Shown: positions 29,569 to 61,642, numbered from the stretch's first letter. The stretch is DNA of 64,000 nt from Candidatus Daviesbacteria bacterium (GCA_016176335.1 JACOXI010000003.1:322477-386476); one strand, 5' to 3'. Notes: a model not told the origin generated them from the sequence alone. A program made the numbers and translations.

Positions 29569-29595
29569 AAGTAGTATATCATCATATAATTAGAT

Positions 29596-31143: not shown

Positions 31144-31148
31144 TTAAA

Positions 31149-36553: not shown

Positions 36554-36578
36554 TTGTAAGCTGATACACTAGGTCACT

Positions 36579-38275: not shown

Positions 38276-38322
38276 ATAAGGTTCATTTTATCACACTATA
38301 TAACATACATTAGTTCATTGCT

Positions 38323-47522: not shown

Positions 47523-48245
47523 ATGAAAGGCATCATATTGGCAGGAGGGTTAGGGACCCGTCTTTACCCTCTGACTAAAGTAACCAATAAACATTTATTA
47601 CCGGTTTACAACAAGCCGATGATTTTTTACCCCATTGATACCCTTGTCAAGGCGGGTATTACCGATATTTTGGTGGTGACCGGTGGCCCTCATTGTGGTG
47701 ACTTTATGTCAATTTTAAAGAATGGTCAGCAGTTGGGTATTAAACATTTGGAATATGCATATCAGGAAGATGAAGGGGGGATAGCCCATGCCTTATCTTT
47801 GGGGGAAAATTTTGCTGAAGGAGATAGTATTACGGTTATCCTGGGTGATAACACTTCTGATTCGGATATTTCCGAGTCTGTGGCAAACTTTAAAGAAGGA
47901 GCGTTAATATATCTTAAGAAAGTTCCCGACCCCCAGCGTTTCGGTATTGCCACCTTTGACCCAAAAGATGGGTCAAAAATAATTAAGATCACAGAAAAAC
48001 CCCACAAAGCGGATTCTGATATGGCGGTAACAGGAGTTTACATCTATGATAATCAGGTTTTTGATTTTATTAGACAAATAAAACCTTCGGGCAGAGGAGA
48101 GTTGGAAATCACTGATGTTAATAATAAATATATAGAAAAAGGACAATTAAATTGGAGTGAGCTCAAGGGCTATTGGTGGGATGCCGGAACCTTTGATACC
48201 CTGCTTGAGGCCAATAATTATTGGGCCAAGAAAGCAAAAGGATAA
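47523..48245 (+). CDS. rmlA: sugar-1-phosphate nucleotidyltransferase (RmlA-like, short form)
   Basis: MKGIILAGGLGTRLYPLTKVTNKHLLPVYNKPMIFYPI matches the G1P thymidylyltransferase N-terminal signature. At 240 aa it is shorter than canonical RmlA. Confidence 0.75.
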   Translation: MKGIILAGGLGTRLYPLTKVTNKHLLPVYNKPMIFYPIDTLVKAGITDILVVTGGPHCGDFMSILKNGQQLGIKHLEYAYQEDEGGIAHALSLGENFAEGDSITVILGDNTSDSDISESVANFKEGALIYLKKVPDPQRFGIATFDPKDGSKIIKITEKPHKADSDMAVTGVYIYDNQVFDFIRQIKPSGRGELEITDVNNKYIEKGQLNWSELKGYWWDAGTFDTLLEANNYWAKKAKG

Positions 48246-48251
48246 TAAACA

Positions 48252-48287
48252 ATGAAGGTTTTAGTGACAGGAGGCGCGGGTTTTTAG
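48252..48287 (+). pseudogene. remnant 5' fragment of a dTDP-glucose 4,6-dehydratase gene
   Basis: atgaaggttttagtgacaggaggcgcgggttttTAG encodes MKVLVTGGAGF followed by a stop. It duplicates the first 11 codons of the intact rmlB (MRILVTGGAGF) that begins 36 nt downstream. Confidence 0.5.
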
Positions 48288-48322
48288 AGCGTTAGCTCGC
48301 AAAACCGGCCAGCAAGAAACAC

Positions 48323-49327
48323 ATGCGTATTTTAGTGACCGGAGGAGCAGGTTTTATTGGATCTAACCTTATCCATTATTGGTTAAAAAATCATCCGGAT
48401 GATCAAGTTGTCAATCTTGATGCTTTAACTTACGCTGGACATCTGGAAAGTTTAACAGATGTCGAAAATAACCCCAATTATAAATTTATCAAAGGAGATA
48501 TTACGGATCAGAAAATAGTTTCGGATGCCATGAATGGTGTGGATATTGTTATACATTTTGCGGCGGAGTCTCACGTTGACAGATCGATAATTGATCCTTT
48601 GCAGTTTGTCAAAACCAATATTTTGGGAACGGCTGTTTTATTGAATGCGGCAGTGGAAACAGAGGTTAAAAGGTTTCATCATATCTCAACAGATGAGGTG
48701 TATGGAGAGCTTGGCCCAAATGATCCGCCATTTGGTGAGAAAAATGCTTATGCTCCCAGGACCCCTTATGCCGCATCAAAGGCAGGTTCGGATCATTTGG
48801 TACGTGCATATCATCAAACTTACGGTTTACCAGTAACCATTAGTAATTGCGCCAATAACTTTGGTTCTTACCATGATCCGGAGAAATTGATCCCGCGCTT
48901 TATTACCAATCTTTTGGAGGGTAAAAGAGTGCCATTGATGGGTAAAGGAGAAAATATCAGAGAATGGTTGCACGTTTTAGATCATGCTGCGGCCATTGAT
49001 TTGGTATTAAAAAAGGGTGAGATTGGTGAGACTTATCTTATTCAAGGTGAGGAAAAAACCAATTTGGAAATAACACAAATGATACTTAAGATTTTGGGGC
49101 TTGGTGAGGATATGATTGAGTTTGTTGAGCATAGGTTAGGGCATGATTTCCGTTATGCAATTGACGGATCAAAACTTAAATCTTTGGGGTGGGAAAGAAA
49201 ACACAGTCTGGAAGAAGATTTACCTATTGTTGTTTCTTGGTATAAAGAAAATGAATGGTGGTGGAAACCCCTAAAAGGTAATCGGCCAAATGTAGACAGA
49301 GTTGCCCAAAAATCATACAATCAATGA
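48323..49327 (+). CDS. rmlB: dTDP-glucose 4,6-dehydratase
   Basis: MRILVTGGAGFIGSNLIHYW, catalytic YAASKAGSD (YxxxK), and RmlB-typical length of 334 aa. Confidence 0.9.
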   Translation: MRILVTGGAGFIGSNLIHYWLKNHPDDQVVNLDALTYAGHLESLTDVENNPNYKFIKGDITDQKIVSDAMNGVDIVIHFAAESHVDRSIIDPLQFVKTNILGTAVLLNAAVETEVKRFHHISTDEVYGELGPNDPPFGEKNAYAPRTPYAASKAGSDHLVRAYHQTYGLPVTISNCANNFGSYHDPEKLIPRFITNLLEGKRVPLMGKGENIREWLHVLDHAAAIDLVLKKGEIGETYLIQGEEKTNLEITQMILKILGLGEDMIEFVEHRLGHDFRYAIDGSKLKSLGWERKHSLEEDLPIVVSWYKENEWWWKPLKGNRPNVDRVAQKSYNQ

Positions 49328-49330
49328 AGA

Positions 49331-49879
49331 ATGAGTGATTTTGTGAAGACTACTTCCATCCCCGGGGTGTTAAAACTTGAGAGACCTACTCATCAAGATG
49401 AGCGCGGATTTTTCAGAGAAATTTTCCATTTAGATGAGTTGGAGCAAGTTTTGGGCTGGCAGTTTAAGCCGGTTCAATGGAATCACTCCAGATCAAAACC
49501 AAAAGTTTTGCGGGGTCAGCATGCGGAAAACTGGAATAAGTTAATTTATCCGGTAACGGGGGAGGTATTTGCTTCTGTTTTGGATATCAGGTCAGATTCG
49601 GCAACTTTCGGAAAAGTTGAAACTTTTCAATTTGACGGTACAAATAGATTTGCGCTTTTTGTACCCAAAGGGATGGCAAACTCTTTTTGTGTAACAGGAG
49701 ATGAGGATGTAAATTATTTGTATTTGGTAGATAGCTACTATGATGGTTCTGATACAACCGCAATTGCCTGGAATGATCCTGATATAAAGATTGTATGGCC
49801 AATAAATGATCCGATAATTTCTGAAAGAGATAAAAATAATCCTAAGCTGCGTGATCTATTTCCCGAAAAATTTAAATGA
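49331..49879 (+). CDS. rmlC: dTDP-4-dehydrorhamnose 3,5-epimerase
   Basis: Cupin fold protein with IPGVLKLERPTHQDERGFFREIF and WNDPDI motifs. 182 aa. Confidence 0.85.
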   Translation: MSDFVKTTSIPGVLKLERPTHQDERGFFREIFHLDELEQVLGWQFKPVQWNHSRSKPKVLRGQHAENWNKLIYPVTGEVFASVLDIRSDSATFGKVETFQFDGTNRFALFVPKGMANSFCVTGDEDVNYLYLVDSYYDGSDTTAIAWNDPDIKIVWPINDPIISERDKNNPKLRDLFPEKFK

Positions 49880-50751
49880 AGAAACTATTAATTTTTGGCG
49901 GTAGCGGCTTGGTTGGCTCCAAATTTATAGAAAGCCACAACCAAACTTTTGAAATTAACGCCCCTCCCGCCAAAGAAGTAGATATTTTAAACAAAAATCA
50001 AATCTTAAAAGCGTTGGAGGATTTAAATCCCGACTCGGTTATAAATTTTGCAGCTTATACAAATGTTGAGCAAGCAGAAGAACAAACAGAAGATAAAGCG
50101 GGTGTTTGTTTTCAAATAAATGCAATGGGCGCAAAAAATGTAGCAGATGCTTGTCGCATTTTGGATAAACATCTACTCCATATTTCTACAGAATATGTGT
50201 TTGATGGAACAAAAGCGGAGAGGCCTTATGTAGAAGAGGATAAGCCAAACCCTATAAATTGGTATGGACACACAAAGTATTTTGGGGAGCAATTTGTTTT
50301 AGGAAGTGGATGCAAATCGTCAATTGTCAGAATTTCTATGCCTTACTCTGCATATTATGAATTTAAAAAAGATGTTGCCAGATTTTTTCTTGAGCAACTT
50401 AAATTAAAAAATCCGATTAGAGCAGTGGTAGATCAATTAATAACTCCTACACTGGTTGATGATATAGCAGACGCATTGTCAGAAATTGTCAAAAAAAGAC
50501 TTGAGGGAGTTATTAATGTATCATGTAAAAGTTCAACCACGCCATTTGATTTTGCAAAAACAATTGCGAAAGTGTTTGGTTTGAATGAATCTTTAGTCAA
50601 TAGCATCAGTCTGACGGATTATAACTTAAATAAAAAAGCCAAGATGTTGAAAAATTCAGCCCTCGATCCTTCCAAGTTTGATTCCCTTTTCCCTGGCGTT
50701 TTGCATACTTTGGATGAAAGTGTAAATTTATTCAAGGTAGTTGTTGAATAA
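49876..50751 (+). CDS. rmlD: dTDP-4-dehydrorhamnose reductase
   Basis: MKKLLIFGGSGLVGSKF Rossmann motif and RmlD substrate-binding domain architecture. Start overlaps the rmlC stop. Confidence 0.8.
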   Translation: MKKLLIFGGSGLVGSKFIESHNQTFEINAPPAKEVDILNKNQILKALEDLNPDSVINFAAYTNVEQAEEQTEDKAGVCFQINAMGAKNVADACRILDKHLLHISTEYVFDGTKAERPYVEEDKPNPINWYGHTKYFGEQFVLGSGCKSSIVRISMPYSAYYEFKKDVARFFLEQLKLKNPIRAVVDQLITPTLVDDIADALSEIVKKRLEGVINVSCKSSTTPFDFAKTIAKVFGLNESLVNSISLTDYNLNKKAKMLKNSALDPSKFDSLFPGVLHTLDESVNLFKVVVE

Positions 50752-50779
50752 CTTTAGAAAATCCGATATAGTTACGATT

Positions 50780-51793
50780 ATGGCAGGTAAAAAAGCTTTC
50801 ATCACAGGAATCTCCGGACAAGACGGATCATATTTAACGGAATTTTTATTGGATAAGGGCTACGAGGTGGCAGGGTTGGTCAGAAGAAATGCTTTGGCGG
50901 AATTGGGTAATATTGAGAAATTTAAAGAGGAGGTTAGAATTTACTTCGGGGATTTGCAATTTCCCGAGTCCATTGTATTGGCCTTGTATGATTTTAAACC
51001 TGACGAAATTTATAATTTGGCATCTCTTTCTTCTCCCCTTTCGTCTTTTTCAGACAAATTCGCATCAATAATGGTGACCGGAGTTGGGGCTTTGCATGTA
51101 TTTGAGAGAGCCAAACAGATTGTACCGGATGCAAAAATTTATCAGGCTTCAACCTCCGAAATGTTTGGAGCGCCAAAACAGGTTCCCCAAAATGAAGATA
51201 CCCCGCTTTCTCCCGCAAACCCATACGCGGCAGCCAAAGAGTATGCTCACAGGATGGCTGTAATTGCGAGGCAAGACAAAAATCAGCCGCAATTTATTGC
51301 CTGCGGAATTCTGTTTAATCATGAGAGCCCGCGTCGCGGATTAAATTTTGTGACCAGGAAAATTTCTGCCGCGGTTGCCTGTATTAAAAACGGCAGAAAG
51401 GAAGGGATCCCGTTAAATGAAATGGGTGAACCGATTGTTAAAAACGGCAAATTAAAATTGGGGGATTTGAATGCAAAAAGAGACTGGGGGTATGCACCGG
51501 ATTATATCGAGGCAATGTATAAGATCATGCAACAAAAGATTGCTGATGATTTTGTAGTAGCGACAGGTGAGGTACACACTGTCGAGGATTTTGCCAAAGA
51601 GGCTTTTGAGGTTGTGGATTTAAATTATAACGATTATGTTGAGACAGATCCTCACTTTGTCCCGCCTATTCAAACAGGTCCTTTACACGGTGATGCGAGC
51701 AAAGCCAAAAAAGTTTTAGGTTGGGAACCAAAAACAAAATTTTCAGATCTTGTCAGAATAATGGTTCACGCTGATCTTGCTAAATTTTCCTGA
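50780..51793 (+). CDS. gmd: GDP-mannose 4,6-dehydratase
   Basis: MAGKKAFITGISGQDGSYLTEFLLDKGYEV and LFNHESPRRG are Gmd hallmarks. Start taken at MAGKK rather than the in-frame ATG at 50741. Confidence 0.85.
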   Translation: MAGKKAFITGISGQDGSYLTEFLLDKGYEVAGLVRRNALAELGNIEKFKEEVRIYFGDLQFPESIVLALYDFKPDEIYNLASLSSPLSSFSDKFASIMVTGVGALHVFERAKQIVPDAKIYQASTSEMFGAPKQVPQNEDTPLSPANPYAAAKEYAHRMAVIARQDKNQPQFIACGILFNHESPRRGLNFVTRKISAAVACIKNGRKEGIPLNEMGEPIVKNGKLKLGDLNAKRDWGYAPDYIEAMYKIMQQKIADDFVVATGEVHTVEDFAKEAFEVVDLNYNDYVETDPHFVPPIQTGPLHGDASKAKKVLGWEPKTKFSDLVRIMVHADLAKFS

Positions 51794-51811
51794 TTTCCCT
51801 ACAATCACAGC

Positions 51812-52996
51812 ATGCGCAAAGTTTCGGTAGTACTTCCCACTTTTAACGAAAAAGCAAATATAGAAAAAACTGTGGAAAAAGTTTTTGAACAGGAAAAAAA
51901 CTTACCAGATTGGGAAATCCACATTGTGATTGCGGATGACATACGTTCTTCCGACGGAACGGAAGAAATTGCCAAAAAACTTGCAAGAAAAAATCAAAAA
52001 ATACACTTTATAAAAGTTGACCCGGGCCTTGGAGTAGGACTTATTAAAGGTCATCAATTTGCAATAGAAAAAATCAAGCCTGATATTTTGGCACAACTTG
52101 ATGCGGACGGACAGGTTGTTCCGGATGTTTTGGTGAAACTGGTTACTACCATTCAGGAAGGATATAATTTGGTAATTGGATCCAGGTTTGTTACGGGAGG
52201 GAAAAATCAATTATCGCTGGCAAGAAAAATTTTTACATCAGGGGCATCCCTTTTTTGCAGAATGGTGATAGGACCCTCCGACATTAAAGAATTTACAAAT
52301 TCTGCCAGGGCTTTTACACCAGCTCTTTTTGAGAAAATAAATTTAAACAGACTGCCCTGGAGAGAAAGGACTTTTATTGTCCAGCCCGCCTTTTTGCATG
52401 AGGCAATTTTGGCAGGAGCAAAATATAAAGAAGTACCCTTAATTTTTAAAAATCGCTTAGAGGGTTACTCCAAAAATAAAGTCTTCAATTATACTTATGA
52501 CATTATTACTTATGGCATTGATGTAAAACTTCGAAGTCTGGGATTTCATGTCAGGTTTTTTTATTTTTCCCGCAGGGTCAAAACTTTGGTCAAATTTTCT
52601 TTGGTTGGATTTGTAGGAACAGTGGTAGATTTCTTCTTCTACAAAATGTTCATTAACGCTTTAGGTTTACCTCCCGCCACCTCAAAGGGAATCTCAACAG
52701 AAATTGCCATTATTAATAATTTTATTTTAAATAATTATTGGACATTCAGGTATAGAAAGACTAAAACCAGAATTTGGCAAAAGCTGGGAATTTTTAACCT
52801 GGTCTCATTAGGAGGATTGGTGATAGGAGTTTTAATAGTTAAGTATTTACATTTAACATTTGGGGATGGATTTATAAATGTTTTTGGTAGGCCAGTTGCC
52901 TACAACAATTTTTACTTTTTTGCCACTATTCCCCCTGTTATGCTTTGGAATTTTATCGTTAACCACTTCGTAACATGGCGTCACCAGGAAGATTAG
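51812..52996 (+). CDS. GT2 polyprenol-phosphate glycosyltransferase fused to a C-terminal GtrA-like membrane domain
   Basis: N-terminal VSVVLPTFNEKANI ... HIVIADD ... DADGQ (GT2, DPM1/GtrB-like). C-terminal 4-TM region FSLVGFVGTVVDFFFYKMF ... NNYWTFRY (GtrA family signature). Confidence 0.75.
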   Translation: MRKVSVVLPTFNEKANIEKTVEKVFEQEKNLPDWEIHIVIADDIRSSDGTEEIAKKLARKNQKIHFIKVDPGLGVGLIKGHQFAIEKIKPDILAQLDADGQVVPDVLVKLVTTIQEGYNLVIGSRFVTGGKNQLSLARKIFTSGASLFCRMVIGPSDIKEFTNSARAFTPALFEKINLNRLPWRERTFIVQPAFLHEAILAGAKYKEVPLIFKNRLEGYSKNKVFNYTYDIITYGIDVKLRSLGFHVRFFYFSRRVKTLVKFSLVGFVGTVVDFFFYKMFINALGLPPATSKGISTEIAIINNFILNNYWTFRYRKTKTRIWQKLGIFNLVSLGGLVIGVLIVKYLHLTFGDGFINVFGRPVAYNNFYFFATIPPVMLWNFIVNHFVTWRHQED

Positions 52997-54162
52997 TTGA
53001 AAGGAGCAAGATTTGGTATTGAGGCTACGTTTTGGATAATGAAATTTTGGGAATATAAATAAATTGCCAAAGCAATAATAGGTAAAATAATTTTAAACTC
53101 TTTTGAAGTTAAGACTTTTTCAAAAGCTATCAGTACAAACGGTGTTATGGGTAATAAGTATCTGCTGATGTCGCGGTGGGCTATTAATGTAGAGGCCGCA
53201 AGATAGGTTAAAACAAAGAATGCCAAAGGATATAATTTTTGTTTTATCAACAGCACCCCGCCTAAAAACCCCAATATAAAAATGTAAACTATATCTTCAA
53301 GCCAGATATCCCCGACCCAAAATTGACCCTTGTTGAAAACCTGGAAGGGAGGAAAGGTCAGATGAATATTATCCCCGCTATGAAAGTATGCCCAAAAATC
53401 CCCATATGTTTGGCTATATAAATAAAATATTCCCCAAAGTCCTATGAGGATAAGAATAAGGGGGAAATATCTTAAGTGATCAAGATATGCTTTTTTAAAC
53501 CCGACGATTTTGGATTGTATATAAAATTTATAGTGGATATATAGTGCCAGGGCTAAAAATAGCAATATTCCGGGGGGTCTGGTTATTTGGGCCAGTAGTC
53601 CAAATATGGCAGAGATCCAAATATAGTAAGTATTTGAATATTTTTCGAACTTTAAGAAAAAATAAATAGATGTAATGACAAAAAAAATAAAGACTGGTTC
53701 GGCAGATCCGACCGAGTGGATGATCACCCATCTTGCCGGTAGAAACAAAAATAGAATGGATAAAAACAGTGGTTTGTTACTTAATTTAAAATCTTTTACC
53801 AAAAAGTAGAATGCCCAGCTTGAGAGAATGGTAAATATCAAAGAGACTACAAGCATTGATTTCAAAAATCCCAAAAGCGGTGCAAAAATTAGTATCAATA
53901 GAGAATAACCGGGAAAGTGAGCAGCATAGTAATTTGCAGGAAGCGACTGGGGTATTTGGGCAACAAGATTAGGGTTGTAAAAAGATTTGGCAATGACAAT
54001 ATATTCCAATCCGTCAAAGTTGTTATAGATTGTGGAAAAACCTTTTGAAAAATTTAAGCCCCAAAAATTGGGAAGGGATAAAATGTGGGGTAGCCAGATT
54101 AGAAGGGTGGCGAGAGAAACGGTAAAAGCGAGGACTAACAGATTAGATATTGTTTTGTTCAT
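52993..54162 (-). CDS. polytopic membrane protein, possible GT-C glycosyltransferase of another family
   Basis: 389 aa with ~11 TM helices. N-terminal loop NFDGLEYIVIAKSFYNP ... AAHFPGYSLLILIF. Its membership of the GT-C superfamily is a guess based on context and topology. Confidence 0.4.
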   Translation of the reverse strand: MNKTISNLLVLAFTVSLATLLIWLPHILSLPNFWGLNFSKGFSTIYNNFDGLEYIVIAKSFYNPNLVAQIPQSLPANYYAAHFPGYSLLILIFAPLLGFLKSMLVVSLIFTILSSWAFYFLVKDFKLSNKPLFLSILFLFLPARWVIIHSVGSAEPVFIFFVITSIYFFLKFEKYSNTYYIWISAIFGLLAQITRPPGILLFLALALYIHYKFYIQSKIVGFKKAYLDHLRYFPLILILIGLWGIFYLYSQTYGDFWAYFHSGDNIHLTFPPFQVFNKGQFWVGDIWLEDIVYIFILGFLGGVLLIKQKLYPLAFFVLTYLAASTLIAHRDISRYLLPITPFVLIAFEKVLTSKEFKIILPIIALAIYLYSQNFIIQNVASIPNLAPFN

Positions 54163-54200
54163 TTAATTAATTATACAGGAAAATATGCTAAACTTGAAAA

Positions 54201-56381
54201 GTGAATCATCTAAAATCCCTCTCTACGAAATCGCTATCTGTATTTTTCCCTCTATATAATGAGGAAGGAAATGTGGAAATTCTGGTTGAAAAAGCCTTAA
54301 AAGTCTTGGAGGGATTAAAACTTAAAGATTATGAAATACTTCTTATAAATGATGGCTCAACAGACAACACCGGAAAAGTTGCAGATAAGTTGGCTGTTGG
54401 GAATCGAAAAATTAGAGCTATTCACCACCAGAAAAATTTAGGTTACGGTGAGGCCTTAAAGAGTGGATTTTATAATGCAAAATTTGATCTGATTGTTTAT
54501 ACGGATGGGGATGGACAGTTTGATTTTTCGGAAGTCACCAAATTTTTGGAAACAATTGAAGACTATGATTTATTGATTGGATACAGGATTAAAAGGCAGG
54601 ACCCTATTTTTCGAATTCTCTTTAAAAAAGGCTGGACACTCTCTCTTTGGATAATGTATCAGCTAACCTTAAGAGATGTTGATTGTGGTTTTAAGATGAT
54701 CAAGCGGGAAGTACTGGAAAAAATTCCCAACCTGGAATCTCAAAGAGGTGCAATGATCAATGCCGAGATTGCCATAAAGGCTAAAAAGTATGGCTTCAGG
54801 GTTGGTCAGATCGGAGTGAGCCACTATCCAAGATTATCCGGCAAGCCGACAGGTGCAAGCTTAAAAGTGATCGTTCGTTCGTATGTTGATCTTTTAAGGC
54901 TTTGGTGGAAATTAAAAGATCAAAAATATGTTCTTATATTGCTTTTTTTAACTCTCGCGCTGGCAACATCCTTTCGTTTCTATAGGATTGATGCTTATAT
55001 GACTTTTTTGGGAGATGAAGGAAGGGATGCTCTTATTATGAAAAGAATGCTTTCGGGAGATTTTCCTCTGATCGGTCCTCCTACATCTTTTGGGAATATA
55101 TATTTGGGTCCGCTGTACTACTATATGATGTTTGTTCCAATGGTTCTGACTGGTTTTAATCCGGTTTCGGCAGCGGCCATGAATGCTTTAATAGGTCTTT
55201 TAACTGTCGGGTTTATCTATTATCTTGGCAAAATTTGGTTTGGAAGAATTTCGGGACTGATTGCAGCGTTCCTTTATGCCATATCTCCGGTGACAATAAT
55301 TTATTCCCGTTCGTCCTGGAATCCTAATCCCGCACCTTTTTTTGCCCTGCTGGGAATTTTTAGTTTATATAAACTAAACAAAGGTGGAAATTTCCGTTGG
55401 CTTATTGCAACAGGCGCATCATTTGCAGCTGCTTTACAGATGCATTATCTGGCTATAATTTTAACTCCTATTGGGGCTTTCTTGTGGTTACATGAAATCT
55501 GGTACAGATCTTCAAAGAAGATGCACATTAAAAATTTATTTTCAGGAACATTGCTTGGGATAATTTCTTTTCTTGCAGTTATGTCACCGCTTTTTATTTT
55601 CGATTTAAGACACAATTTTTTAAACTACAGGGCAATCACAACTCTTTTTTCACAAAGCTCTGCTGTTGGTTGGGATATCATTCCGAATATAGTAAGGATT
55701 CCCTCTCTTTATTCTTATAATTTGATCGGAAGATATATGACGGGGGAAAATTACTTATTGCAAGTTATACTTACTGTTTTAATTATTATTCCTTTTGTCA
55801 GGAGAAAAACTTTAAACTGGCCGATTTTGGCTTTGGGAGTATGGTTAATTGTTGGTCTTTTCGGGATTTCCTTTTATCAGCAGAGCGTTTATGATCATTA
55901 CTTGGGGTTTTTAAACCCTGCCCCGTTTTTACTTTTCGGGTCTCTGGCTAACCTTAAATTAGGTTTTCGTAAACTGATATATGTTGTACTTTTCATATTA
56001 GTAATTGCTTTGACTTGGGTAAATTTGCAGAAAAATCCTCAACTTAATCCTCCAAACAGGCAGCTTAAAAGGACGCAAGATGTGGCAAAATTTATAATTA
56101 ATCAAGCAAAGGGTGAGGATTTTAACTTTGCACTACTGGCGAAAAATAATTATGATTCAGCTTATTCATTTTATCTTGGGGAATATGGTCACAAACCAAA
56201 GAACGTGCCGTTTGAAAAAACAGATCAATTATTTGTAGTTTGTGAAGATCCTTGTGATCCCATATATTCTCCAAAATATGAGATTGCCGCGTTTGGCTGG
56301 ACGCTTGTTGAAAGAGAATGGGATTTTGAGGGTATTCAAATATATAAGCTTATTCATAATCCGGAGGAATTAAAACAATGA
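54201..56381 (+). CDS. fusion protein: N-terminal GT2 polyprenol-phosphate sugar synthase plus C-terminal GT-C membrane glycosyltransferase
   Basis: Residues ~10-240 are GT2 (SVFFPLYNEEGNVEIL ... LINDGSTDNTGKV ... DGDGQ). Residues ~250-726 carry the GT-C paralog motifs (RFYRIDAYMTFLGDEGRDAL ... LIGPPTSFGNIYLGPLYYY ... FDLRHNFLNY) and a soluble C-terminal domain. Confidence 0.7.
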   Translation: MNHLKSLSTKSLSVFFPLYNEEGNVEILVEKALKVLEGLKLKDYEILLINDGSTDNTGKVADKLAVGNRKIRAIHHQKNLGYGEALKSGFYNAKFDLIVYTDGDGQFDFSEVTKFLETIEDYDLLIGYRIKRQDPIFRILFKKGWTLSLWIMYQLTLRDVDCGFKMIKREVLEKIPNLESQRGAMINAEIAIKAKKYGFRVGQIGVSHYPRLSGKPTGASLKVIVRSYVDLLRLWWKLKDQKYVLILLFLTLALATSFRFYRIDAYMTFLGDEGRDALIMKRMLSGDFPLIGPPTSFGNIYLGPLYYYMMFVPMVLTGFNPVSAAAMNALIGLLTVGFIYYLGKIWFGRISGLIAAFLYAISPVTIIYSRSSWNPNPAPFFALLGIFSLYKLNKGGNFRWLIATGASFAAALQMHYLAIILTPIGAFLWLHEIWYRSSKKMHIKNLFSGTLLGIISFLAVMSPLFIFDLRHNFLNYRAITTLFSQSSAVGWDIIPNIVRIPSLYSYNLIGRYMTGENYLLQVILTVLIIIPFVRRKTLNWPILALGVWLIVGLFGISFYQQSVYDHYLGFLNPAPFLLFGSLANLKLGFRKLIYVVLFILVIALTWVNLQKNPQLNPPNRQLKRTQDVAKFIINQAKGEDFNFALLAKNNYDSAYSFYLGEYGHKPKNVPFEKTDQLFVVCEDPCDPIYSPKYEIAAFGWTLVEREWDFEGIQIYKLIHNPEELKQ

Positions 56382-57106
56382 AATTGTCTGTTGTAATACC
56401 TGCATATAATGAGGAAGGAAATCTTAAGAAAGGGGTTTTGGAGGGGGTTGAAAAATATTTGAAAGGGAAAGATTATGAGGTAATTATTGTTGATGACGGT
56501 TCAGCAGATGAAACAAGGAAGATAGTAAAAAAATATATATCCAAAAATGAGAACTTTAAGTTAATTGAGAATTCTCACGGTGGGAAAGCAATGGCGGTGA
56601 TGACCGGGATGTTGGCAAGTAAGGGAGAGGTAATTTTATTTACCGATATGGATCAGGCAACACCGATAAAGGAATGGGATAGATTTTCTCCTAAATTTGA
56701 GCAAGGTTATGATTTGGTGATTGGTTCCCGCAGGGGGAGGAAAGGAGCGCCCATGGTGAGAAAACTGGCAGCTTGGGGGTTTTCCGTTCTTCGTGGAATA
56801 ATTTTAGGTCTGCCATTTTCCGATACCCAATGTGGATTTAAAGCTTTTAATAGAAAATCAATTGAAAAAATTATTCCAAAGATTAAGGATGAGTGGGGAG
56901 TGGTGCACTTTAGGGGGGGAGCTGTTAATGCCGGATTTGATGTCGAGCTATTATATCTTGCCAAGAAATACGGCTTTAAGGTTGCAGAGGTTGATGTTGA
57001 GTGGAACTATGTTGATACCGAAAGAGTACAGGTTATCAAAGATGCCCTGGCAGCAATATATGATATGCTCCGAATTAGAATTAATGATTTATCAGGTAAA
57101 TATTAA
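56378..57106 (+). CDS. GT2 polyprenol-phosphate glycosyltransferase (DPM1/GtrB-like), stand-alone
   Basis: MKLSVVIPAYNEEGNL ... VIIVDDGSADETRKIV ... DMDQ. 242 aa with no membrane domain. Start overlaps the upstream stop (ATGA). Confidence 0.8.
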   Translation: MKLSVVIPAYNEEGNLKKGVLEGVEKYLKGKDYEVIIVDDGSADETRKIVKKYISKNENFKLIENSHGGKAMAVMTGMLASKGEVILFTDMDQATPIKEWDRFSPKFEQGYDLVIGSRRGRKGAPMVRKLAAWGFSVLRGIILGLPFSDTQCGFKAFNRKSIEKIIPKIKDEWGVVHFRGGAVNAGFDVELLYLAKKYGFKVAEVDVEWNYVDTERVQVIKDALAAIYDMLRIRINDLSGKY

Positions 57107-57144
57107 CCCTGTTAGATTTTTTGATAATGTGGTAATTTAATCAA

Positions 57145-57657
57145 ATGAGCGATTCAACTGATGTATGTCCTAAATGCGGTGCTCCCTTGGGAAATGTTAC
57201 AGAAACACAAAGCGGAAAAAAGCTACAAAAGTGTTCTAAGGGTTTTTGGAATAAAGAAGAGAGAAGAAATGAGGGTTGTGATTATGTTAAGTGGTTGCAA
57301 GTTGAACCTCAAGAATTAGATGAAAAATGCCCCAAGTGTGGTAATAATTTAATTTTGCAGGTTACCCGTTTTGGCAAGAAGTTGAAGAAATGCTCAACCG
57401 GGGGGTGGGATAAAGAAGCCAAAAAAGCTACAGGGTGTGACTTCGTAGAATGGATTACAGGCAAAACAGAACCTTTGGGTGTAGATTGTCCAACTTGCGG
57501 GGAGAAATTAGTTTTATTTACAACAGCAAATGGAAAGAAGATGGAGAAATGTTCAACATCAGGATGGGATTCTAAAGAGAAAAGACCAACAGGTTGTACT
57601 TACATTAGATGGTTAAAGCCAGGGGAGACACCTATACCTTCAAAATCAGGAGGATAG
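57145..57657 (+). CDS. protein with three topoisomerase-type C4 zinc-ribbon repeats (YrdD-like)
   Basis: Three repeats of CPxCG-x(14-18)-KCS-x-G-W-x(7-10)-GC-x(3)-W. Confidence 0.45.
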   Translation: MSDSTDVCPKCGAPLGNVTETQSGKKLQKCSKGFWNKEERRNEGCDYVKWLQVEPQELDEKCPKCGNNLILQVTRFGKKLKKCSTGGWDKEAKKATGCDFVEWITGKTEPLGVDCPTCGEKLVLFTTANGKKMEKCSTSGWDSKEKRPTGCTYIRWLKPGETPIPSKSGG

Positions 57658-57658
57658 A

Positions 57659-58261: not shown

Positions 58262-58375
58262 AATATTGCTTAGTGTGTAAGTATACCACGTTATCCTCCT
58301 TTGTGCTTTAATATAGCAGGAAAAATGTATCCATTGAACTTGCCTTTTTGATACTCAAAAACGTAATATATAAGA

Positions 58376-59875
58376 GTGAAACTTCTTGTAAAGCATAAGG
58401 TTGAATTGTTTATTCTTTTGATCCTTATCGCCTGTTATTTTATTTTAAGGCTTCCAAATCTTACTCTTCAGCCCATTTTTGCGGATGAGGCCATCTATAT
58501 CCGCTGGGCCCAAGTTATGAGAGCGGAGCCAACCTTGCGGTTTATTTCCATGCAAGATGGTAAAACCCCTCTTTTTATGTGGACAATGATGCCTATTTTT
58601 AAAATTTTTGAAGACCCCTTATTTGCCGGAAGGGTTTTATCAGTTACATCCGGTTTCTTTTCACTTTTGGGCGTATATTTCCTTTCCAAAAAAATTTTTA
58701 ATAAGCAAACAGCTTTTTGGGCCGCCCTTTTGTATGTAATTACTCCTTATACTGTTTTTTTTGACAGGATGGCTTTGGTGGATTCCATGCTTTCCGCATT
58801 TGGCATTTGGATAATTTATTTTGCAATTTGGCTGTCAAAAACTTTAAGGCTGGATATTGCCATGATTTTAGGTTACCTTTTGGGAGGAGCGGTTTTAACC
58901 AAAACTTCGGGGATGGTAAATTTTTTGCTTGTGCCTGTTTCTATTTTGGGATTCAACTTTGAAAAAAGTAAGAGAAAACCTTTTTTAAAGCTTGCCTTAC
59001 TTTGGGGAGTGGCCATAGGTATAGGTTTAATAATGTATAATCTGTTAAGACTGGGACCGGAATTTCACCAGCTATCTTCTAGAAATCAGGATTATGTGTT
59101 TTCCCCCCTAGAACTTATCGGTAGACCCTTGGATCCATTTTTACCGCATTTTCAAGATATTTTTGATTGGTTCCCCAAACTCTTAACTTGGCCGATTCTT
59201 TTTTGCGGAGCTGTAGGTTTATTTTATGTTTTGACTAACTTTCACAAACTAGGTCTGGTTTTATTTTTGTGGGGTTTTATACCTTTAATTTTGGATATGG
59301 TATTTTTAAAAACTTTTACGGCAAGATATTTACTGCCAACAATCCCCACACTCTTAATTATTTCAGCATATGGCATTTATCATATACTCCCAAGATTTGT
59401 TTCTCACAGACCCCTATCTTTCGTACTGATGCTTTTAGTGGTACTACCTTTACCCTTATATTTTAATTATTTGCTTCTGACTAATCCTCAAAAAGCACCT
59501 TTACCTTCTGAAGAAAGATCGGGGTATTTTGAAGCTTGGACTGCAGGTTATGGTTTTTCTGAAATTTCACAATTTTTAAAAGAGCAAAAGAAAGCAGGTA
59601 AGGTGGTAGTTGGAACAGAAGGTTTTTTTGGAACTTTGCCAGACGGATTGCGCATCTATTTGGATAAAGATGATATAGCAATAATTGGCAGTCATGCTAC
59701 AATTTCCGCACAGATTAGAAATGCGGCTAAAGATAATTTAACATTCTTTGTCGGCAACAAAAGCAGAGTTTCGGGAAGCGTTAATAATGTTGTTTTACTT
59801 AAAGAATATCCGAAAGCAAAACCCTTAGAAAAGTTAGATCAAGATGCCATAGTTTTATATAAGGTTTTACCATAA
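58376..59875 (+). CDS. GT-C membrane glycosyltransferase, ArnT/PMT-like (DE-motif type)
   Basis: First loop IFADEAIYIRWAQVM ... QDGKTPLFMW resembles the ArnT/PMT catalytic DE loop. ~11 TM and a C-terminal soluble domain. Confidence 0.65.
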   Translation: MKLLVKHKVELFILLILIACYFILRLPNLTLQPIFADEAIYIRWAQVMRAEPTLRFISMQDGKTPLFMWTMMPIFKIFEDPLFAGRVLSVTSGFFSLLGVYFLSKKIFNKQTAFWAALLYVITPYTVFFDRMALVDSMLSAFGIWIIYFAIWLSKTLRLDIAMILGYLLGGAVLTKTSGMVNFLLVPVSILGFNFEKSKRKPFLKLALLWGVAIGIGLIMYNLLRLGPEFHQLSSRNQDYVFSPLELIGRPLDPFLPHFQDIFDWFPKLLTWPILFCGAVGLFYVLTNFHKLGLVLFLWGFIPLILDMVFLKTFTARYLLPTIPTLLIISAYGIYHILPRFVSHRPLSFVLMLLVVLPLPLYFNYLLLTNPQKAPLPSEERSGYFEAWTAGYGFSEISQFLKEQKKAGKVVVGTEGFFGTLPDGLRIYLDKDDIAIIGSHATISAQIRNAAKDNLTFFVGNKSRVSGSVNNVVLLKEYPKAKPLEKLDQDAIVLYKVLP

Positions 59876-59881
59876 TTCGAA

Positions 59882-61642
59882 ATGTTTAACTTTCTTGCAA
59901 ACAGATCTTTTCTTGAAAAGATTTCATATAAATCTTGGATCATTTTAATTGTCATATTGACCATCCCCACCTTTTATCAACTGATTAGGCCCGGTTTTTT
60001 CTTTATGCAAGATGACCTGCAAGCAATGAGAGTACATCAGATGTTTAGGTGTTTGCAGGATTTTCAAATTCCCTGCAGGTGGGTGCCTGACATGGGTTAT
60101 CAGTATGGCTATCCCCAGTTTTTATATTACCCTCCCAGTGTATATTATTTGGGTGCTTTAATTCATTTATTTGCTGTTCAAATCATAGATTCTGTCAAAA
60201 TTCTGTTTATCTTCGGTTATATTCTTTCAACACTTTTTATGTTTATTTTTTTAAAAGCTTTTTTTGATGGAGAATCTAAAGAAAAAAGATTTGTCAGTAC
60301 TACCCTGCCTGCATTTTTGGGGGCAATGCTTTATACATACATTCCATATAAAGCATTAGAGGTCTATGTTAGAGGTGCTTTAAACGAATTTTGGAGTCTG
60401 GTTTTCTTTCCTTTGATTTTTTGGGCAATCTATCAGCTGATAAGCAAACAAAAGTTAAAATATGTAATTTTCCTTGCTCTCTCCACAGCTGCACTGATGC
60501 TTACTCACAATTTAATGACACTTATTTTTGCGCCACTTTCCATACTTTGGTGTTTAAGTTTGCTCGTATTAAAAAAGACTTGGAAAGTGATCCCCAAAAT
60601 ATTTTTGGGAGGACTTTTGGGAATAGGACTGGCAGCTTTTTTTACACTACCGGTAATTTTTGAAGGGAAATACGCTCATCTGGAAACTCTGGTAGGCGGA
60701 TATTTTGACTACAGGCAACACTTTGTTTCTATCAATAGATTATTGATTTCAAACCAATTTGGTTACGGGTCATCTGGGTTTGGACAAGATAATAATTTAA
60801 CTTTATCAACAGGACAAATACAATGGATGGTGGCTTTATTTGGATTTATTTTAGCGCCATTCTTTTTAAAAAAGCATAAAAATATAGCAATACTTGTAAT
60901 AATCAATTCTTTAGTTGAACTTGTAGTTTTATTTTTGATTCATCAAAAATCCTCTTTCATTTGGGAGCGAATACCAATTATGGTCTATTTACAATTTCCC
61001 TGGAGATTTTTGACAGACAGTATTTTTCTACTGTCTTTTTTAGGAGCGGGAACAATTTTCTTTATTAGTCAAATCAACATTAAAGGAGCAAAAATTTTTG
61101 CAACTTTGATTTTAATAGGAATCTTCCTACTGCATGCTCAATTTTTTAAACCTAAAGAGTGGTTTGGTATTTCCGACAAGGATAAATTTTCCGGCCCTTT
61201 TTGGGAGAAAGAATTAACAATCAGCATTTTTGATTACCTGCCCGCCTATGCAGAACTTCCTCCCAACAAAATTGCACCGGATACCCCTGAAGTTTTGGAA
61301 GGAAAGGTACGCTTTATAACCTACAGGAAGGGAAGCAACTACCAGATAGGAGAAGTTGAGGCAAGGGAGGATTCTGTCATTAGATTGCCGTTATTTGATT
61401 TTCCGGGGATGAGAGTAACAGTAGATGGAAAAGTAGTTGGACACAAAAATGATGACTGCAGGGGAGAGGAATATTGTTTGGGTTTAATAACCTTTGATTT
61501 GCCTCAAGGATCCCACCTTATAAAAGCACAACTGATGGATACACAAATTAGGAGTATAGGGAATATAATTACCTTGACCTCTTTTCTTTTACTTTTAGTA
61601 TTAGTTGGTAAAAACTATGGTTACAAAAAAGTTCATCTTTAA
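59882..61642 (+). CDS. YfhO-like polytopic membrane protein (GT-C glycosyltransferase candidate)
   Basis: N-terminal loop GFFFMQDDLQAMRVHQMFRCLQDFQIPCRWVPDMGYQYGYPQFLYY parallels the YfhO N-terminal D-x-x-Q-Y ... FYSW ... GlG ... YY region. Many TM helices and a C-terminal soluble domain. Confidence 0.5.
   Translation: MFNFLANRSFLEKISYKSWIILIVILTIPTFYQLIRPGFFFMQDDLQAMRVHQMFRCLQDFQIPCRWVPDMGYQYGYPQFLYYPPSVYYLGALIHLFAVQIIDSVKILFIFGYILSTLFMFIFLKAFFDGESKEKRFVSTTLPAFLGAMLYTYIPYKALEVYVRGALNEFWSLVFFPLIFWAIYQLISKQKLKYVIFLALSTAALMLTHNLMTLIFAPLSILWCLSLLVLKKTWKVIPKIFLGGLLGIGLAAFFTLPVIFEGKYAHLETLVGGYFDYRQHFVSINRLLISNQFGYGSSGFGQDNNLTLSTGQIQWMVALFGFILAPFFLKKHKNIAILVIINSLVELVVLFLIHQKSSFIWERIPIMVYLQFPWRFLTDSIFLLSFLGAGTIFFISQINIKGAKIFATLILIGIFLLHAQFFKPKEWFGISDKDKFSGPFWEKELTISIFDYLPAYAELPPNKIAPDTPEVLEGKVRFITYRKGSNYQIGEVEAREDSVIRLPLFDFPGMRVTVDGKVVGHKNDDCRGEEYCLGLITFDLPQGSHLIKAQLMDTQIRSIGNIITLTSFLLLLVLVGKNYGYKKVHL

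What the first reader, a model, noticed from the sequence alone, without database searches (positions are those of the whole stretch)
51812..57106. Gtr-like three-component glycosylation module compacted by two different domain fusions
The module comprises three genes. 51812-52996 encodes a GT2 (GtrB/DPM1-like) catalytic domain fused to a C-terminal GtrA-like four-helix membrane domain (NNYWTFRY signature). 54201-56381 encodes a second GT2 domain fused in one polypeptide to a full GT-C membrane transferase, so synthesis of the lipid-linked sugar donor and the transferase that consumes it are physically coupled. 56378-57106 is a third, stand-alone GT2. A GtrB-GtrC-type fusion is unusual. Combined with a GtrB-GtrA fusion in the same locus, it implies a streamlined polyprenol-phosphate sugar relay.
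Basis: seen in the sequence. Interest (0 to 1): 0.7.

Follow-up and report, generated by a model that had tools for sequence, protein, structure and literature searches.

The report
Fused lipid-sugar synthase and transferase locus
In this uncultured groundwater-type bacterium (Candidatus Daviesbacteria), the enzyme predicted to load a sugar onto a membrane lipid carrier is joined in one protein to the membrane enzyme predicted to use such lipid-linked sugars outside the cell. The join is real and has arisen several times, but it is a compact version of a well-known envelope-glycosylation scheme, not a new kind of system.

Summary
51812-52996 encodes GT2 + GtrA/DPMS_TM, 54201-56381 encodes GT2 + a GT-C (PMT_2/ArnT-like) domain in one 726-aa ORF, and 56378-57106 encodes a GT2 with no membrane helix.

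The 726-aa fusion is not a frameshift artefact. It is full length in more than 100 protein clusters and about 33 of 80 species-level genomes, all Microgenomates/Patescibacteria. In 45 other genomes the orthologues are two adjacent genes, joined by an ATGA stop/start overlap where inspected. A tree indicates at least 3-4 independent fusions.

The "GtrB-GtrA fusion" is the already solved type-III dolichyl-phosphate-mannose synthase architecture (P. furiosus DPMS, 5MLZ). The GT2~GT-C fusion most resembles M. tuberculosis Ppm1, a membrane-helix-free polyprenyl-phosphate-mannose synthase that is fused to its membrane partner in some species and split in others. Here the partner is a GT-C.

The three genes are not a self-contained module. 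They sit in a conserved locus (rmlABCD-gmd, three GT2s) within a window holding at least 12 GT-C paralogues.

Direct donor channelling is not shown, and the two active sites lie on opposite membrane faces. Verdict: a new variant of a known kind, of moderate interest.

The parts
47523..50751 (+). rmlA, rmlB, rmlC and rmlD (dTDP-L-rhamnose pathway). These are the upstream part of the conserved locus.
   Evidence: Pfam NTP_transferase 6e-56, GDP_Man_Dehyd/Epimerase 4e-74, dTDP_sugar_isom 5e-45, RmlD_sub_bind 2e-62. Same order in L001/L002.
50741..51793 (+). GDP-mannose 4,6-dehydratase-like gene, immediately upstream of the DPMS-like gene.
   Evidence: PF16363, E 1e-91, full length. Conserved position in L001.
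51812..52561 (+). GT2 catalytic domain (residues 1-250) of the 394-aa type-III-DPMS-like polyprenyl-phosphate glycosyltransferase.
   Evidence: PF00535, E 2e-22. Aligns with PfDPMS 5MLZ.
52574..52987 (+). GtrA/DPMS-type four-helix membrane domain (residues 255-392) of the same protein. NNYWTFRY is at nt 52730-52753.
   Evidence: PF04138, 75 bits, profile positions 1-117 of 117. Helices 1-3 align to PfDPMS chain residues 254-347, E 6e-8. PfDPMS Asn277 is conserved and Asn248 is Asp here.
52993..54162 (-). It is convergent with the DPMS-like gene (4-nt tail overlap) and divergent from the fusion gene (38-nt spacer).
   Evidence: Weak PMT_2 hit, E 0.008. Some homologues are named GT39 family or carry PF13231. 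AF2 model pLDDT 81.7, pTM 0.86. Every Foldseek PDB hit at E<=1e-3 (8 hits) is an oligosaccharyltransferase catalytic subunit (PglB, STT3); weaker matches include AglB, Pmt4, ArnT, ALG9 and Emb. N48, D50 and G51 are invariant in the first loop.
54225..54914 (+). GT2 domain (residues 9-238) of the 726-aa fusion protein. It has no membrane helices of its own and ends in the helix SLKVIVRSYVDLLRLWWKL. The DXD motif D102-G-D104 is at nt 54504-54512.
   Evidence: PF00535, E 4.5e-26. The top 24 Foldseek PDB hits are all ArnC, GtrB or DPMS, E 2e-12 to 8e-9. D51, D102, D104, D159 and D161 are invariant in 46 fused homologues. Secondary structure.
54915..54929 (+). Fusion junction (residues K239-Y243). 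In split relatives this is where the GT2 stop codon overlaps the GT-C start codon (ATGA).
   Evidence: Comparison of the window junction with L041, L053 and L064 in all frames. Alignment A2 shows unfused GT-C proteins start just before TM1.
54927..56366 (+). GT-C domain (residues 243-722). TM1 is at 243-261, followed by a first outside loop with invariant D272-(E273)-G274-R275-D276 (nt 55014-55028), then ~12-13 helices and a C-terminal alpha/beta domain (~612-722) with invariant C681, E682 and C685.
   Evidence: PF13231, E 1.9e-12. Best GT-C structural match is ArnT 5F15, E 1.3e-8, TMt 0.56, followed by STT3/PglB/AglB. Invariant columns. AF2 pLDDT 86.3, pTM 0.81.
56378..57106 (+). Stand-alone 242-aa GT2 with no membrane helix. 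Its start overlaps the fusion gene's stop by 4 nt. It is 36% identical to the fused GT2 domain.
   Evidence: PF00535, E 4e-29. No hydrophobic segment. BLASTP 36% identity, E 3e-31. Closest PDB sequences are GtrB, ArnC and DPMS. It follows the fusion gene, or the last GT-C of the array, in the related loci that extend far enough.
58376..63284 (+). Downstream array of three further GT-C-like genes (58376-59875 PMT_2; 59882-61642 YfhO-like; 61605-63284 PTPS_related). A fourth starts near 63260 and runs off the window.
   Evidence: Pfam hits. Open frame to the window end. Same array in L001/L002.

Best explanation
This is the core of a conserved Microgenomates (here Candidatus Daviesbacteria) cell-envelope glycosylation locus. 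It works on the known polyprenyl-phosphate-sugar relay principle.

Three GT2 enzymes on the cytoplasmic face are predicted to make polyprenyl-phosphate-monosaccharide donors from nucleotide sugars. These donors reach the outer leaflet, and many GT-C membrane transferases use them to glycosylate an unidentified extracytoplasmic acceptor.

Gene 1 (394 aa) is a type-III-DPMS-like synthase. Its GtrA-like four-helix domain is an integral part of the enzyme: a lipid-binding platform, and possibly a flipping platform.

Gene 3 (726 aa) is a DPM1/Ppm1-like synthase with no membrane helix that has been welded to its obligate neighbouring GT-C partner. The weld arose by loss of the stop codon at an ATGA stop/start overlap. 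The GT-C bundle supplies the membrane anchor and places the synthase beside a consumer. This parallels M. tuberculosis Ppm1, which is fused to its membrane partner while M. smegmatis and C. glutamicum keep the two as separate interacting proteins.

The 242-aa GT2, whose start overlaps the fusion gene's stop (suggesting coupled translation), is a second synthase of the same kind and probably docks on a GT-C as well.

Shown here: the domain architecture, the folds, conservation of catalytic motifs in both halves, the fused/split distribution, the junction mechanism and the synteny.

Inferred: the lipid acceptor of the GT2s, the sugar identity, the flipping step, that the fused GT-C uses its own GT2's product, and the final acceptor.
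For: Architecture and folds:
- Pfam domain calls for all ORFs.
- PfDPMS aligns across both domains of the 394-aa protein.
- AF2 model of the fusion: pLDDT 86.3, pTM 0.81.
- The N-terminal half matches only polyprenyl-phosphate glycosyltransferases in the top 24 hits (ArnC, GtrB, DPMS). The C-terminal half matches ArnT, then STT3/PglB.

Both halves appear to be under selection:
- The GT2 motifs DGS, DGD and DVDCGFK, and the GT-C first-loop motif D272-x-G-R-D276, are invariant in 46 fused homologues.
- The GT-C motifs stay invariant across fused and split homologues at 30-63% identity.

Topology:
- The basic stretch RLWWKLKDQK precedes TM1, and the acidic loop follows it. This fits GT2 inside and the GT-C site outside.

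The fusion marks a functional pair:
- Among 80 species-level genomes, ~33 are fused and 45 are split into directly adjacent GT2 (~235 aa) and GT-C (~505 aa) genes.
- The three split junctions inspected show an ATGA stop/start overlap.
- An NJ tree with Fitch parsimony gives a split ancestor and at least 3-4 independent fusions.
- Other fusion orders exist elsewhere: PMT_2-GT2 and GT2-GtrA-PMT_2.

Locus:
- The order rmlABCD-gmd-DPMS-like-(GT-C)-fusion-GT2-GT-C array is conserved.

Precedent:
- Ppm1 D1-D2 is fused in M. tuberculosis and split but interacting in M. smegmatis and C. glutamicum. GT-C enzymes use its product (PMC3485146).
Against: No biochemical data exist for any member.

All three GT2s score far below every NCBIfam equivalog cut-off (for example 69 bits against 500 for PgfS, 68 against 529 for ArnC). 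Substrate assignment therefore rests on fold and best-hit class only.

GT2 is a very broad family. Glucosyl-3-phosphoglycerate synthases, which are soluble, also match structurally (E ~1e-7).

No dedicated small GtrA or ArnE/F-type flippase gene, and no Wzx, lies inside the window. The flipping step is unaccounted for.

The window has far more GT-C genes (at least 12) than GT2 synthases (3). One-to-one donor/consumer pairing is therefore not implied.

I could not inspect the model coordinates, so the relative orientation of the two active sites is untested.

One fused homologue (P0270) has a degenerate GT2. The fused state can thus persist without synthase chemistry.
Confidence: 0.6

Rival explanations
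1. Anchor-only fusion. The GT-C half serves mainly as the membrane tether or stabiliser for a synthase that has no membrane helix, as Ppm2/Lnt does for Ppm1. The lipid-linked sugar is released into the general pool and used by any of the dozen GT-C paralogues. There is no privileged coupling between the fused halves.
For: The fused GT2 has no membrane helices. The Ppm1 precedent has a partner that stabilises the synthase but is not its consumer. The window has at least 12 GT-C genes against 3 GT2 genes. The two active sites lie on opposite membrane faces.
Against: The GT-C catalytic-loop residues D272, G274, R275 and D276 and several outside-facing motifs are invariant. The GT-C is therefore an active enzyme in its own right. 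This does not exclude the anchor role; it only shows the GT-C is not a mere anchor.
Confidence: 0.2
2. Make-flip-use machine. The GT-C bundle of the fusion (or of the split complex) also provides the path that moves the polyprenyl-phosphate-sugar head group from the inner to the outer leaflet. One polypeptide would then synthesise, translocate and consume the donor without a separate flippase.
For: No stand-alone GtrA, ArnE/F or Wzx gene lies in the window. The GT-C region weakly matches TIGR03663/Agl23 (E 2e-6). Agl23 is a reported hexose-P-dolichol flippase candidate that translocated lipid-linked glycan in proteoliposomes (PMC11182771). Fusions recur, including a GT2-GtrA-GT-C triple fusion. 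PfDPMS crystallographic data suggest a synthase can flip its own product (PMC12992685).
Against: The Agl23 hit is far below the family cut-off (27 bits against 126). No GT-C glycosyltransferase has been shown to flip its donor. The rest of the genome is unseen and may encode a flippase. The DPMS-like protein's GtrA-like domain could serve that role.
Confidence: 0.1
3. The GT2 domains are ordinary GT-A glycosyltransferases acting on other acceptors, such as a lipid-linked oligosaccharide, a diacylglycerol glycolipid or a soluble metabolite, rather than polyprenyl-phosphate-monosaccharide synthases. The fusion would then join two consecutive steps of a different pathway.
For: Scores lie below all curated equivalog thresholds. 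Glucosyl-3-phosphoglycerate synthases and the WTA rhamnosyltransferase RmlT also appear among the structural matches.
Against: The best sequence and structure matches for all three GT2s are consistently ArnC, GtrB and DPMS. The genes are tightly and repeatedly linked to GT-C enzymes, which need polyprenyl-phosphate-sugar donors. One of the three carries the DPMS-type membrane domain.
Confidence: 0.07
4. The 726-aa ORF is an assembly or sequencing artefact: a 1-nt error merged two adjacent genes.
For: Split relatives differ from the fused state by a single frame shift at an ATGA overlap.
Against: 120 of 120 close homologues from independent assemblies are full-length fusions. About 33 species-level genomes share the single ORF and form coherent clades. 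The junction sequence LWWKLKDQK-TM1 is conserved in alignment A1.
Confidence: 0.02

Closest known systems
Type-III dolichyl-phosphate mannose synthase (Pyrococcus furiosus DPMS; PDB 5MLZ/5MM0/5MM1/9EP0)
   Same: The 394-aa protein has the same two-part architecture: a GT2 catalytic domain and a C-terminal GtrA-like four-helix membrane domain. It aligns across both domains (E 5e-28). PfDPMS polar-pocket Asn277 is conserved.
   Different: It is bacterial (Patescibacteria), not archaeal. Asn248 is replaced by Asp. The last helix did not align, so Phe338 and Arg341 are unresolved. There is an insertion before the last helix. The nucleotide-sugar specificity is unknown, and the gene sits directly after a GDP-mannose 4,6-dehydratase gene.
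Mycobacterial Ppm1 (polyprenyl-phosphate mannose synthase): D1-D2 fusion in M. tuberculosis, split Ppm2/Ppm1 in M. smegmatis and C. glutamicum
   Same: A DPM1-like GT2 synthase with no membrane helix is either fused to, or encoded next to and interacting with, a polytopic membrane protein. Fused and split states alternate between related species. The product feeds GT-C transferases (PMC3485146).
   Different: In mycobacteria the membrane partner is an Lnt-type acyltransferase placed N-terminal to the synthase. Here the partner is itself a GT-C glycosyltransferase placed C-terminal, so a predicted producer and a potential consumer share one chain.
GtrA/GtrB/Gtr(type) three-component O-antigen glucosylation; CsbB/GtcA/YfhO teichoic-acid glycosylation; ArnC/ArnE-F/ArnT
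   Same: Same logic: a GT2 makes polyprenyl-phosphate-sugar inside, the lipid flips, and a GT-C transfers the sugar outside. The fused GT2's best structural matches are ArnC and GtrB, and the GT-C's best match is ArnT.
   Different: GtrB, ArnC and CsbB have their own two C-terminal membrane helices, and the fused GT2 and the 242-aa GT2 have none. No separate small GtrA-type protein is present in the window. The GT-C is PMT_2/ArnT-like rather than a Shigella Gtr(type) family member. The ratio here is three synthases to at least 12 GT-Cs instead of 1:1:1.
Agl23 (TIGR03663), haloarchaeal GT-C-like protein associated with hexose-P-dolichol flipping
   Same: It is a polytopic GT-C-like membrane protein. 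The GT-C half and the 499-aa paralogue match this profile weakly (E 2e-6 and 5.5e-10).
   Different: Scores lie far below the family cut-off (27 and 39 bits against 126), so neither is a member. Agl23 is not fused to a GT2.

Membership tests
GT2 / GT-A glycosyltransferase (Pfam PF00535) | Profile match above the gathering score; DXD metal/nucleotide motif | tested here: met
   All three proteins score 80-102 bits against a cut-off of 23.3. D102-G-D104 and D51 are invariant in fused homologues.
Polyprenyl-phosphate glycosyltransferases of the GtrB/ArnC type | GT-A domain plus interface helices plus two C-terminal transmembrane helices of its own | tested here: not met
   The fold matches ArnC and GtrB best (E 2e-12). 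However, the fused GT2 domain ends in one helix (221-238) and runs straight into GT-C TM1. The 242-aa GT2 has no hydrophobic segment. NCBIfam ArnC, PgfS and PpgS equivalog cut-offs are missed by about 7-fold or more.
Polyprenyl-phosphate glycosyltransferases (any type) | Transfers sugar from a nucleotide sugar to polyprenyl phosphate | not testable with these tools
   Needs an enzyme assay. Only best-hit class and GT-C linkage support it.
GtrA family / GtrA_DPMS_TM (Pfam PF04138) | Four-helix membrane domain matching the profile end to end | tested here: met
   Residues 261-389 match profile positions 1-117 of 117, 75 bits against a cut-off of 26.1.
GtrA-type stand-alone flippase (Shigella phage GtrA, GtcA, Rv3789) | Small independent membrane protein of ~120-140 aa | tested here: not met
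   The domain occurs only as the C-terminus of the 394-aa GT2 protein. My GtrA-domain HMM found no other copy among window ORFs of at least 100 aa.
Type-III DPMS (PfDPMS-like) | GT2 catalytic domain contiguous with the GtrA-like membrane domain, alignable over both | tested here: met
   phmmer against 5MLZ: E 5e-28, query 3-352 to chain 24-346.
Type-III DPMS (PfDPMS-like) | Polar-pocket residues Asn248, Asn277 and Arg341, and gating Phe338 (PMC12992685) | tested here: inconclusive
   Asn277 is conserved and Asn248 aligns to Asp (chain numbering offset 22). The last helix carrying Phe338 and Arg341 was not aligned.
GT-C superfamily, PMT_2/ArnT-like (Pfam PF13231) | Profile match above the gathering score; polytopic GT-C fold | tested here: met
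   48.1 bits against a cut-off of 26.1. Foldseek: ArnT 5F15 E 1.3e-8, TMt 0.56, then STT3/PglB/AglB.
GT-C superfamily, PMT_2/ArnT-like | Conserved acidic residue(s) in the first extracytoplasmic loop after TM1 | tested here: met
   D272 and D276 are invariant and E273 is at least 90% conserved across fused and split homologues. The loop's outside location is inferred from the basic stretch before TM1 and from GT-C topology; it is not measured.
Shigella-type serotype-specific Gtr transferases ('GtrC') | Membership of the Gtr(type) GT-C families | tested here: not met
   At E<=0.01 the only GT-C family Pfam reports for the fusion protein is PMT_2, and no Gtr(type) family is listed. The label 'GtrC-type' is only functional analogy.
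Agl23 / TIGR03663 | Score above the NCBIfam cut-off (126 bits) | tested here: not met
   27.1 bits for the fusion and 38.8 bits for the 499-aa paralogue.

The most novel reading that the evidence does not exclude
The recurrent GT2~GT-C fusions, together with the GT2-GtrA-GT-C triple fusion seen in a metagenomic protein, mark a self-contained make-flip-use machine. The GT-C bundle, or the GT2/GT-C interface, would conduct the polyprenyl-phosphate-sugar head group across the membrane from the synthase site to the transferase site. This would give a tractable single-polypeptide model for the still unidentified flipping step of polyprenyl- and dolichyl-phosphate monosaccharides.
Probability: 0.12. 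Interest if true: 0.8.

Novelty: new variant of a known kind. Interest (0 to 1): 0.4.

Why it matters
How polyprenyl- and dolichyl-phosphate monosaccharides cross the membrane, and how synthases without membrane helices are organised with their GT-C consumers, is still poorly understood. That holds even in model organisms.

A lineage in which the synthase and a GT-C are an obligate adjacent pair, and have fused at least 3-4 times, is Rosetta-stone evidence that the two enzymes form a physical complex. It also offers a natural single-chain construct for structural and reconstitution work.

The locus further shows that Microgenomates, which are tiny-genome and probably host-dependent bacteria, invest heavily in extracytoplasmic lipid-donor-dependent glycosylation. 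This window alone holds at least 12 GT-C genes within ~36 kb. That pattern echoes mycobacterial cell-wall assembly and points to an uncharacterised envelope glycan or glycoprotein.

The individual parts and the overall scheme are nonetheless known. The fused proteins are already in public databases, annotated only as "glycosyltransferase" or "hypothetical protein".

Tried and rejected
- **Frameshift artefact:** rejected on conservation.
- **Exact-sequence look-up of the window's 726-aa protein in public assemblies:** not on record. I used the 63%-identical P0118 for synteny instead.
- **Foldseek against afdb50, to see fusions in UniProt with organism names:** library unavailable. I replaced it with the genome-contig scan and cluster names.
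- **Literature searches for a described GT2-GT-C fusion or for Patescibacteria GT-C biology:** nothing relevant found. This does not prove that none exists.
- **Promoter and terminator scan of 51.6-58.5 kb:** counts equal chance expectation, so no operon boundaries could be called.
- **Aligning the last membrane helix of the 394-aa protein to PfDPMS, to check Phe338 and Arg341:** phmmer stops at chain residue 347.
- **Is the reverse-order fusion P0353 (GT-C-GT2) a fused version of the GT-C/242-aa GT2 pair?** Its GT2 is closer to the fused-type GT2 (38%) than to the 242-aa GT2 (31%), so this is not supported.
- **Geometry of the GT2 site relative to the GT-C groove:** could not be examined because model coordinates are not exposed.

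Full report
**1. What is in the sequence**

- 51812-52996 encodes a 394-aa protein. It has a GT2 domain (PF00535, residues 5-135, E 2e-22) and a complete GtrA/DPMS_TM domain (PF04138, residues 261-389, 75 bits against a cut-off of 26). The string NNYWTFRY is at residues 307-314.
- 54201-56381 (GTG start; there is no in-frame ATG upstream of the conserved LSVFFP strand) encodes 726 aa. It has GT2 at 13-175 (E 4.5e-26) and PMT_2 at 304-454 (E 1.9e-12).
- 56378-57106 encodes a 242-aa GT2 (E 4e-29) with no hydrophobic segment.

52993-54162 on the minus strand encodes a 389-aa polytopic membrane protein. Its AlphaFold model (pLDDT 81.7, pTM 0.86) matches only oligosaccharyltransferase catalytic subunits (PglB, STT3) at E<=1e-3. 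AglB, Pmt4, ArnT, ALG9 and Emb follow among weaker matches. Some of its homologues are annotated as GT39 family. It is therefore a minimal GT-C.

**2. Organism and context**

Close homologues of all three proteins that were searched are named Candidatus Daviesbacteria or Patescibacteria. The window is ordinary chromosome: SecA, Lon, ribonucleotide reductase, H+-pyrophosphatase, LysRS, SerRS, RF, FtsEX.

Upstream of the finding lie rmlA-rmlB-rmlC-rmlD and a GDP-mannose 4,6-dehydratase gene. Downstream lie three more GT-C-like genes, and a fourth runs off the window. Six further GT-C paralogues sit at 28-40 kb. That makes at least 12 GT-C genes against three GT2 genes.

The order CAP-rmlABCD-gmd-[GT2-GtrA]-(GT-C)-[GT2~GT-C]-GT2-GT-C array is conserved in a 63%-identical relative (L001/L002). 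In outline it is also conserved across 80 species-level genomes. The "three-gene module" is thus the centre of a larger conserved envelope-glycosylation locus.

**3. The 394-aa protein**

It aligns over both domains with the crystallised type-III dolichyl-phosphate-mannose synthase of Pyrococcus furiosus (5MLZ; E 5e-28, query 3-352). [quoted passage not shown] Recent crystallographic data suggest it may flip its own product (PMC12992685).

Of the residues that paper uses to define the type-III polar pocket:
- Asn277 is conserved here.
- Asn248 is Asp.
- Phe338 and Arg341 could not be aligned.

This is therefore a bacterial member or near relative of a known, structurally solved architecture. 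It is not an unusual new fusion of GtrB with GtrA.

**4. The 726-aa protein is a genuine, selected fusion**

All 120 listed homologues (62-90% identity, 706-740 aa, from many independent assemblies) carry both Pfam domains.

In an alignment of 46 of them, these motifs are invariant:
- GT2: D51 (DGS), D102-G-D104 (DXD), D159/D161 (DVDCGFK).
- GT-C first loop: D272, G274, R275, D276.
- Other GT-C positions: S372-W-N-P375, H415, Y567.

The AlphaFold model is confident (pLDDT 86.3, pTM 0.81). Its N-terminal half matches ArnC, GtrB and DPMS for the first 24 Foldseek hits (E 2e-12 to 8e-9). The first GT-C hit is ArnT (5F15, E 1.3e-8, TMt 0.56), followed by STT3, PglB and AglB.

The GT2 part has no transmembrane helices of its own. 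It ends in a helix (221-238, SLKVIVRSYVDLLRLWWKL). About three residues later, TM1 of the GT-C begins (242-260), followed by the conserved acidic loop. The basic stretch before TM1 and the GT-C fold place GT2 in the cytoplasm and the D272-D276 loop outside. This topology is inferred, not measured.

**5. Origin of the fusion**

An exhaustive profile-free search of 1.84 billion representatives returned about ten fused clusters among the best 150. The remainder were mostly GT-C-only proteins of ~500 aa matching residues ~238-722, or GT2-only proteins of ~235 aa matching residues ~5-238.

I scanned one genome per GTDB species and classified ORFs with HMMs built from the two halves. Of the 80 loci:
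- ~33 have a single fused ORF.
- 45 have a GT2 gene directly followed by the orthologous GT-C gene.
- 2 are undetermined (one cut by a contig edge, one with an intervening gene).

All loci with informative titles are Microgenomates-group Patescibacteria: Daviesbacteria, Woesebacteria, Amesbacteria, Shapirobacteria, Blackburnbacteria. Cluster names add Beckwithbacteria.

Reading three split junctions in all frames shows the GT2 stop overlapping the GT-C start as ATGA (...LWWKIR* / MIKW...). The window reads straight through the same point (...LWWKLKDQKYV...). A single frame change at this overlapped junction therefore makes the fusion.

A neighbour-joining tree of the GT-C domains, with Fitch parsimony, gives a split ancestor and five state changes. 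One of these is a contig-edge artefact (L035). That leaves at least 3-4 independent fusions.

Other arrangements occur in metagenomic proteins:
- PMT_2-GT2, in reverse order (P0353).
- GT2-GtrA-PMT_2, a triple fusion (P0379).
- One fused protein whose GT2 has lost its motifs (P0270).

**6. The 242-aa GT2**

It is 36% identical to the fused GT2 domain. It has the same C-terminal helix and no membrane segment. Its closest solved relatives by sequence are GtrB, ArnC and DPMS.

Its start overlaps the stop of the fusion gene by 4 nt. In related loci it follows the fusion gene or, in most split loci, the last GT-C of the array, usually within a few nucleotides.

**7. Mechanism**

The best-supported reading is the known polyprenyl-phosphate-sugar relay.
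- GT2 enzymes make lipid-linked monosaccharides on the inner face.
- The lipid reaches the outer leaflet.
- GT-C enzymes transfer the sugar to an extracytoplasmic acceptor.

The closest analogy for the fusion is mycobacterial Ppm1. That synthase has no membrane helix. It is fused to a six-helix membrane domain in M. tuberculosis but is a separate, interacting and stabilised protein in M. smegmatis and C. glutamicum. GT-C enzymes use its product (PMC3485146). The new feature here is that the membrane partner is itself a GT-C.

Shown: architecture, folds, motif conservation, fused/split phylogenetic pattern, junction mechanism, synteny.

Inferred: lipid acceptor, sugar identity, which GT-C uses which donor, the flipping agent, and the final acceptor.

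It cannot be direct channelling, because the two catalytic sites are on opposite membrane faces. With three synthases and at least 12 GT-Cs, a shared donor pool is at least as likely.

**8. Rivals**

- Anchor-only fusion: confidence 0.2.
- Make-flip-use machine, in which the GT-C bundle also conducts the lipid head group: 0.1. Hints are the weak TIGR03663/Agl23 similarity, the reported flipping activity of Agl23 (PMC11182771), and the lack of any stand-alone GtrA or Wzx in the window.
- GT2s that are not polyprenyl-phosphate glycosyltransferases: 0.07.
- Assembly artefact: 0.02.

**9. Novelty and score**

Every component family and the overall scheme are known. The DPMS-like architecture is solved. 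The GT2~GT-C proteins are already in public databases under generic names.

I found no paper describing such a fusion in the searchable library. That is weak negative evidence.

The recurrent fusion of a synthase with a GT-C partner, and the obligate adjacent pairing in split relatives, is a useful and apparently undescribed variant. It gives a testable handle on synthase/GT-C complex formation and on the flipping problem.

I rate it a new variant of a known kind, interest 0.4.

Noticed in passing
window 28174-39870 and 52993-64000: There are at least 12 GT-C-fold membrane protein genes in ~36 kb: 28174-29568(-), 29596-31143, 31149-32636, 32637-34175, 35021-36553(-), 38323-39870, 52993-54162(-), 54201-56381, 58376-59875, 59882-61642, 61605-63284, and one from ~63260 to the window end. 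Several get no Pfam hit but match my GT-C HMM. This is an extreme paralogue expansion for a small-genome bacterium.
   Followed up: partly
window 57145-57657 (+) and 57659-58261 (-): Two small cysteine-rich proteins sit between the GT2 gene and the next GT-C array. One is a 170-aa protein of three tandem zinc-ribbon repeats (Zn_ribbon_Top1-like). The other is a 200-aa protein with two zf_Tbcl_2 treble-clef fingers (E 5e-32). In relative L001 this slot holds a DUF3175 gene instead. Their function here is unknown.
   Followed up: no
protein P0270 (metagenomic fused homologue; not in window): This 736-aa GT2~GT-C fusion has a degenerate GT2 half. The DXD and DVDCGFK motifs are lost and there is no Pfam GT2 hit, while the GT-C half is intact. 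It may be a pseudo-enzyme domain retained as a structural appendage.
   Followed up: partly
proteins P0379 and P0353 (metagenomic; not in window): Other fusion orders exist: GT2-GtrA-PMT_2 in one 923-aa chain, and PMT_2-GT2 in reverse order (673 aa). Together they link all three roles of the relay in various combinations.
   Followed up: partly
loci L004, L010-L014, L017-L022 and others (genome contigs): Many GTDB records carrying this locus are titled 'uncultured Gammaproteobacteria/Pseudomonadales bacterium isolate binchicken_...'. Others are titled 'Clostridia' or 'Alphaproteobacteria'. Yet they are 40-66% identical to, and syntenic with, Daviesbacteria or Woesebacteria MAGs. The record titles look like placeholders or mislabels.
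   Followed up: no
window 34172-35020 and 36579-37352: An NAD(P)HX dehydratase gene and an F420-0:gamma-glutamyl ligase-like gene (PF01996, E 4e-36) are embedded within the upstream GT-C array. The latter is odd in an organism not expected to make F420.
   Followed up: no
window 50741-51812: The GDP-mannose 4,6-dehydratase gene ends 18 nt before the DPMS-like gene, and the pairing is conserved in L001. This hints that the DPMS-like synthase may use a GDP-linked 6-deoxyhexose rather than GDP-mannose. No GDP-4-keto-6-deoxymannose reductase or epimerase was identified nearby.
   Followed up: no
window 61605-61642: Two adjacent GT-C-like ORFs (59882-61642 and 61605-63284, TTG start) overlap by 38 nt as listed mechanically. 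The true start of the second is probably downstream.
   Followed up: no
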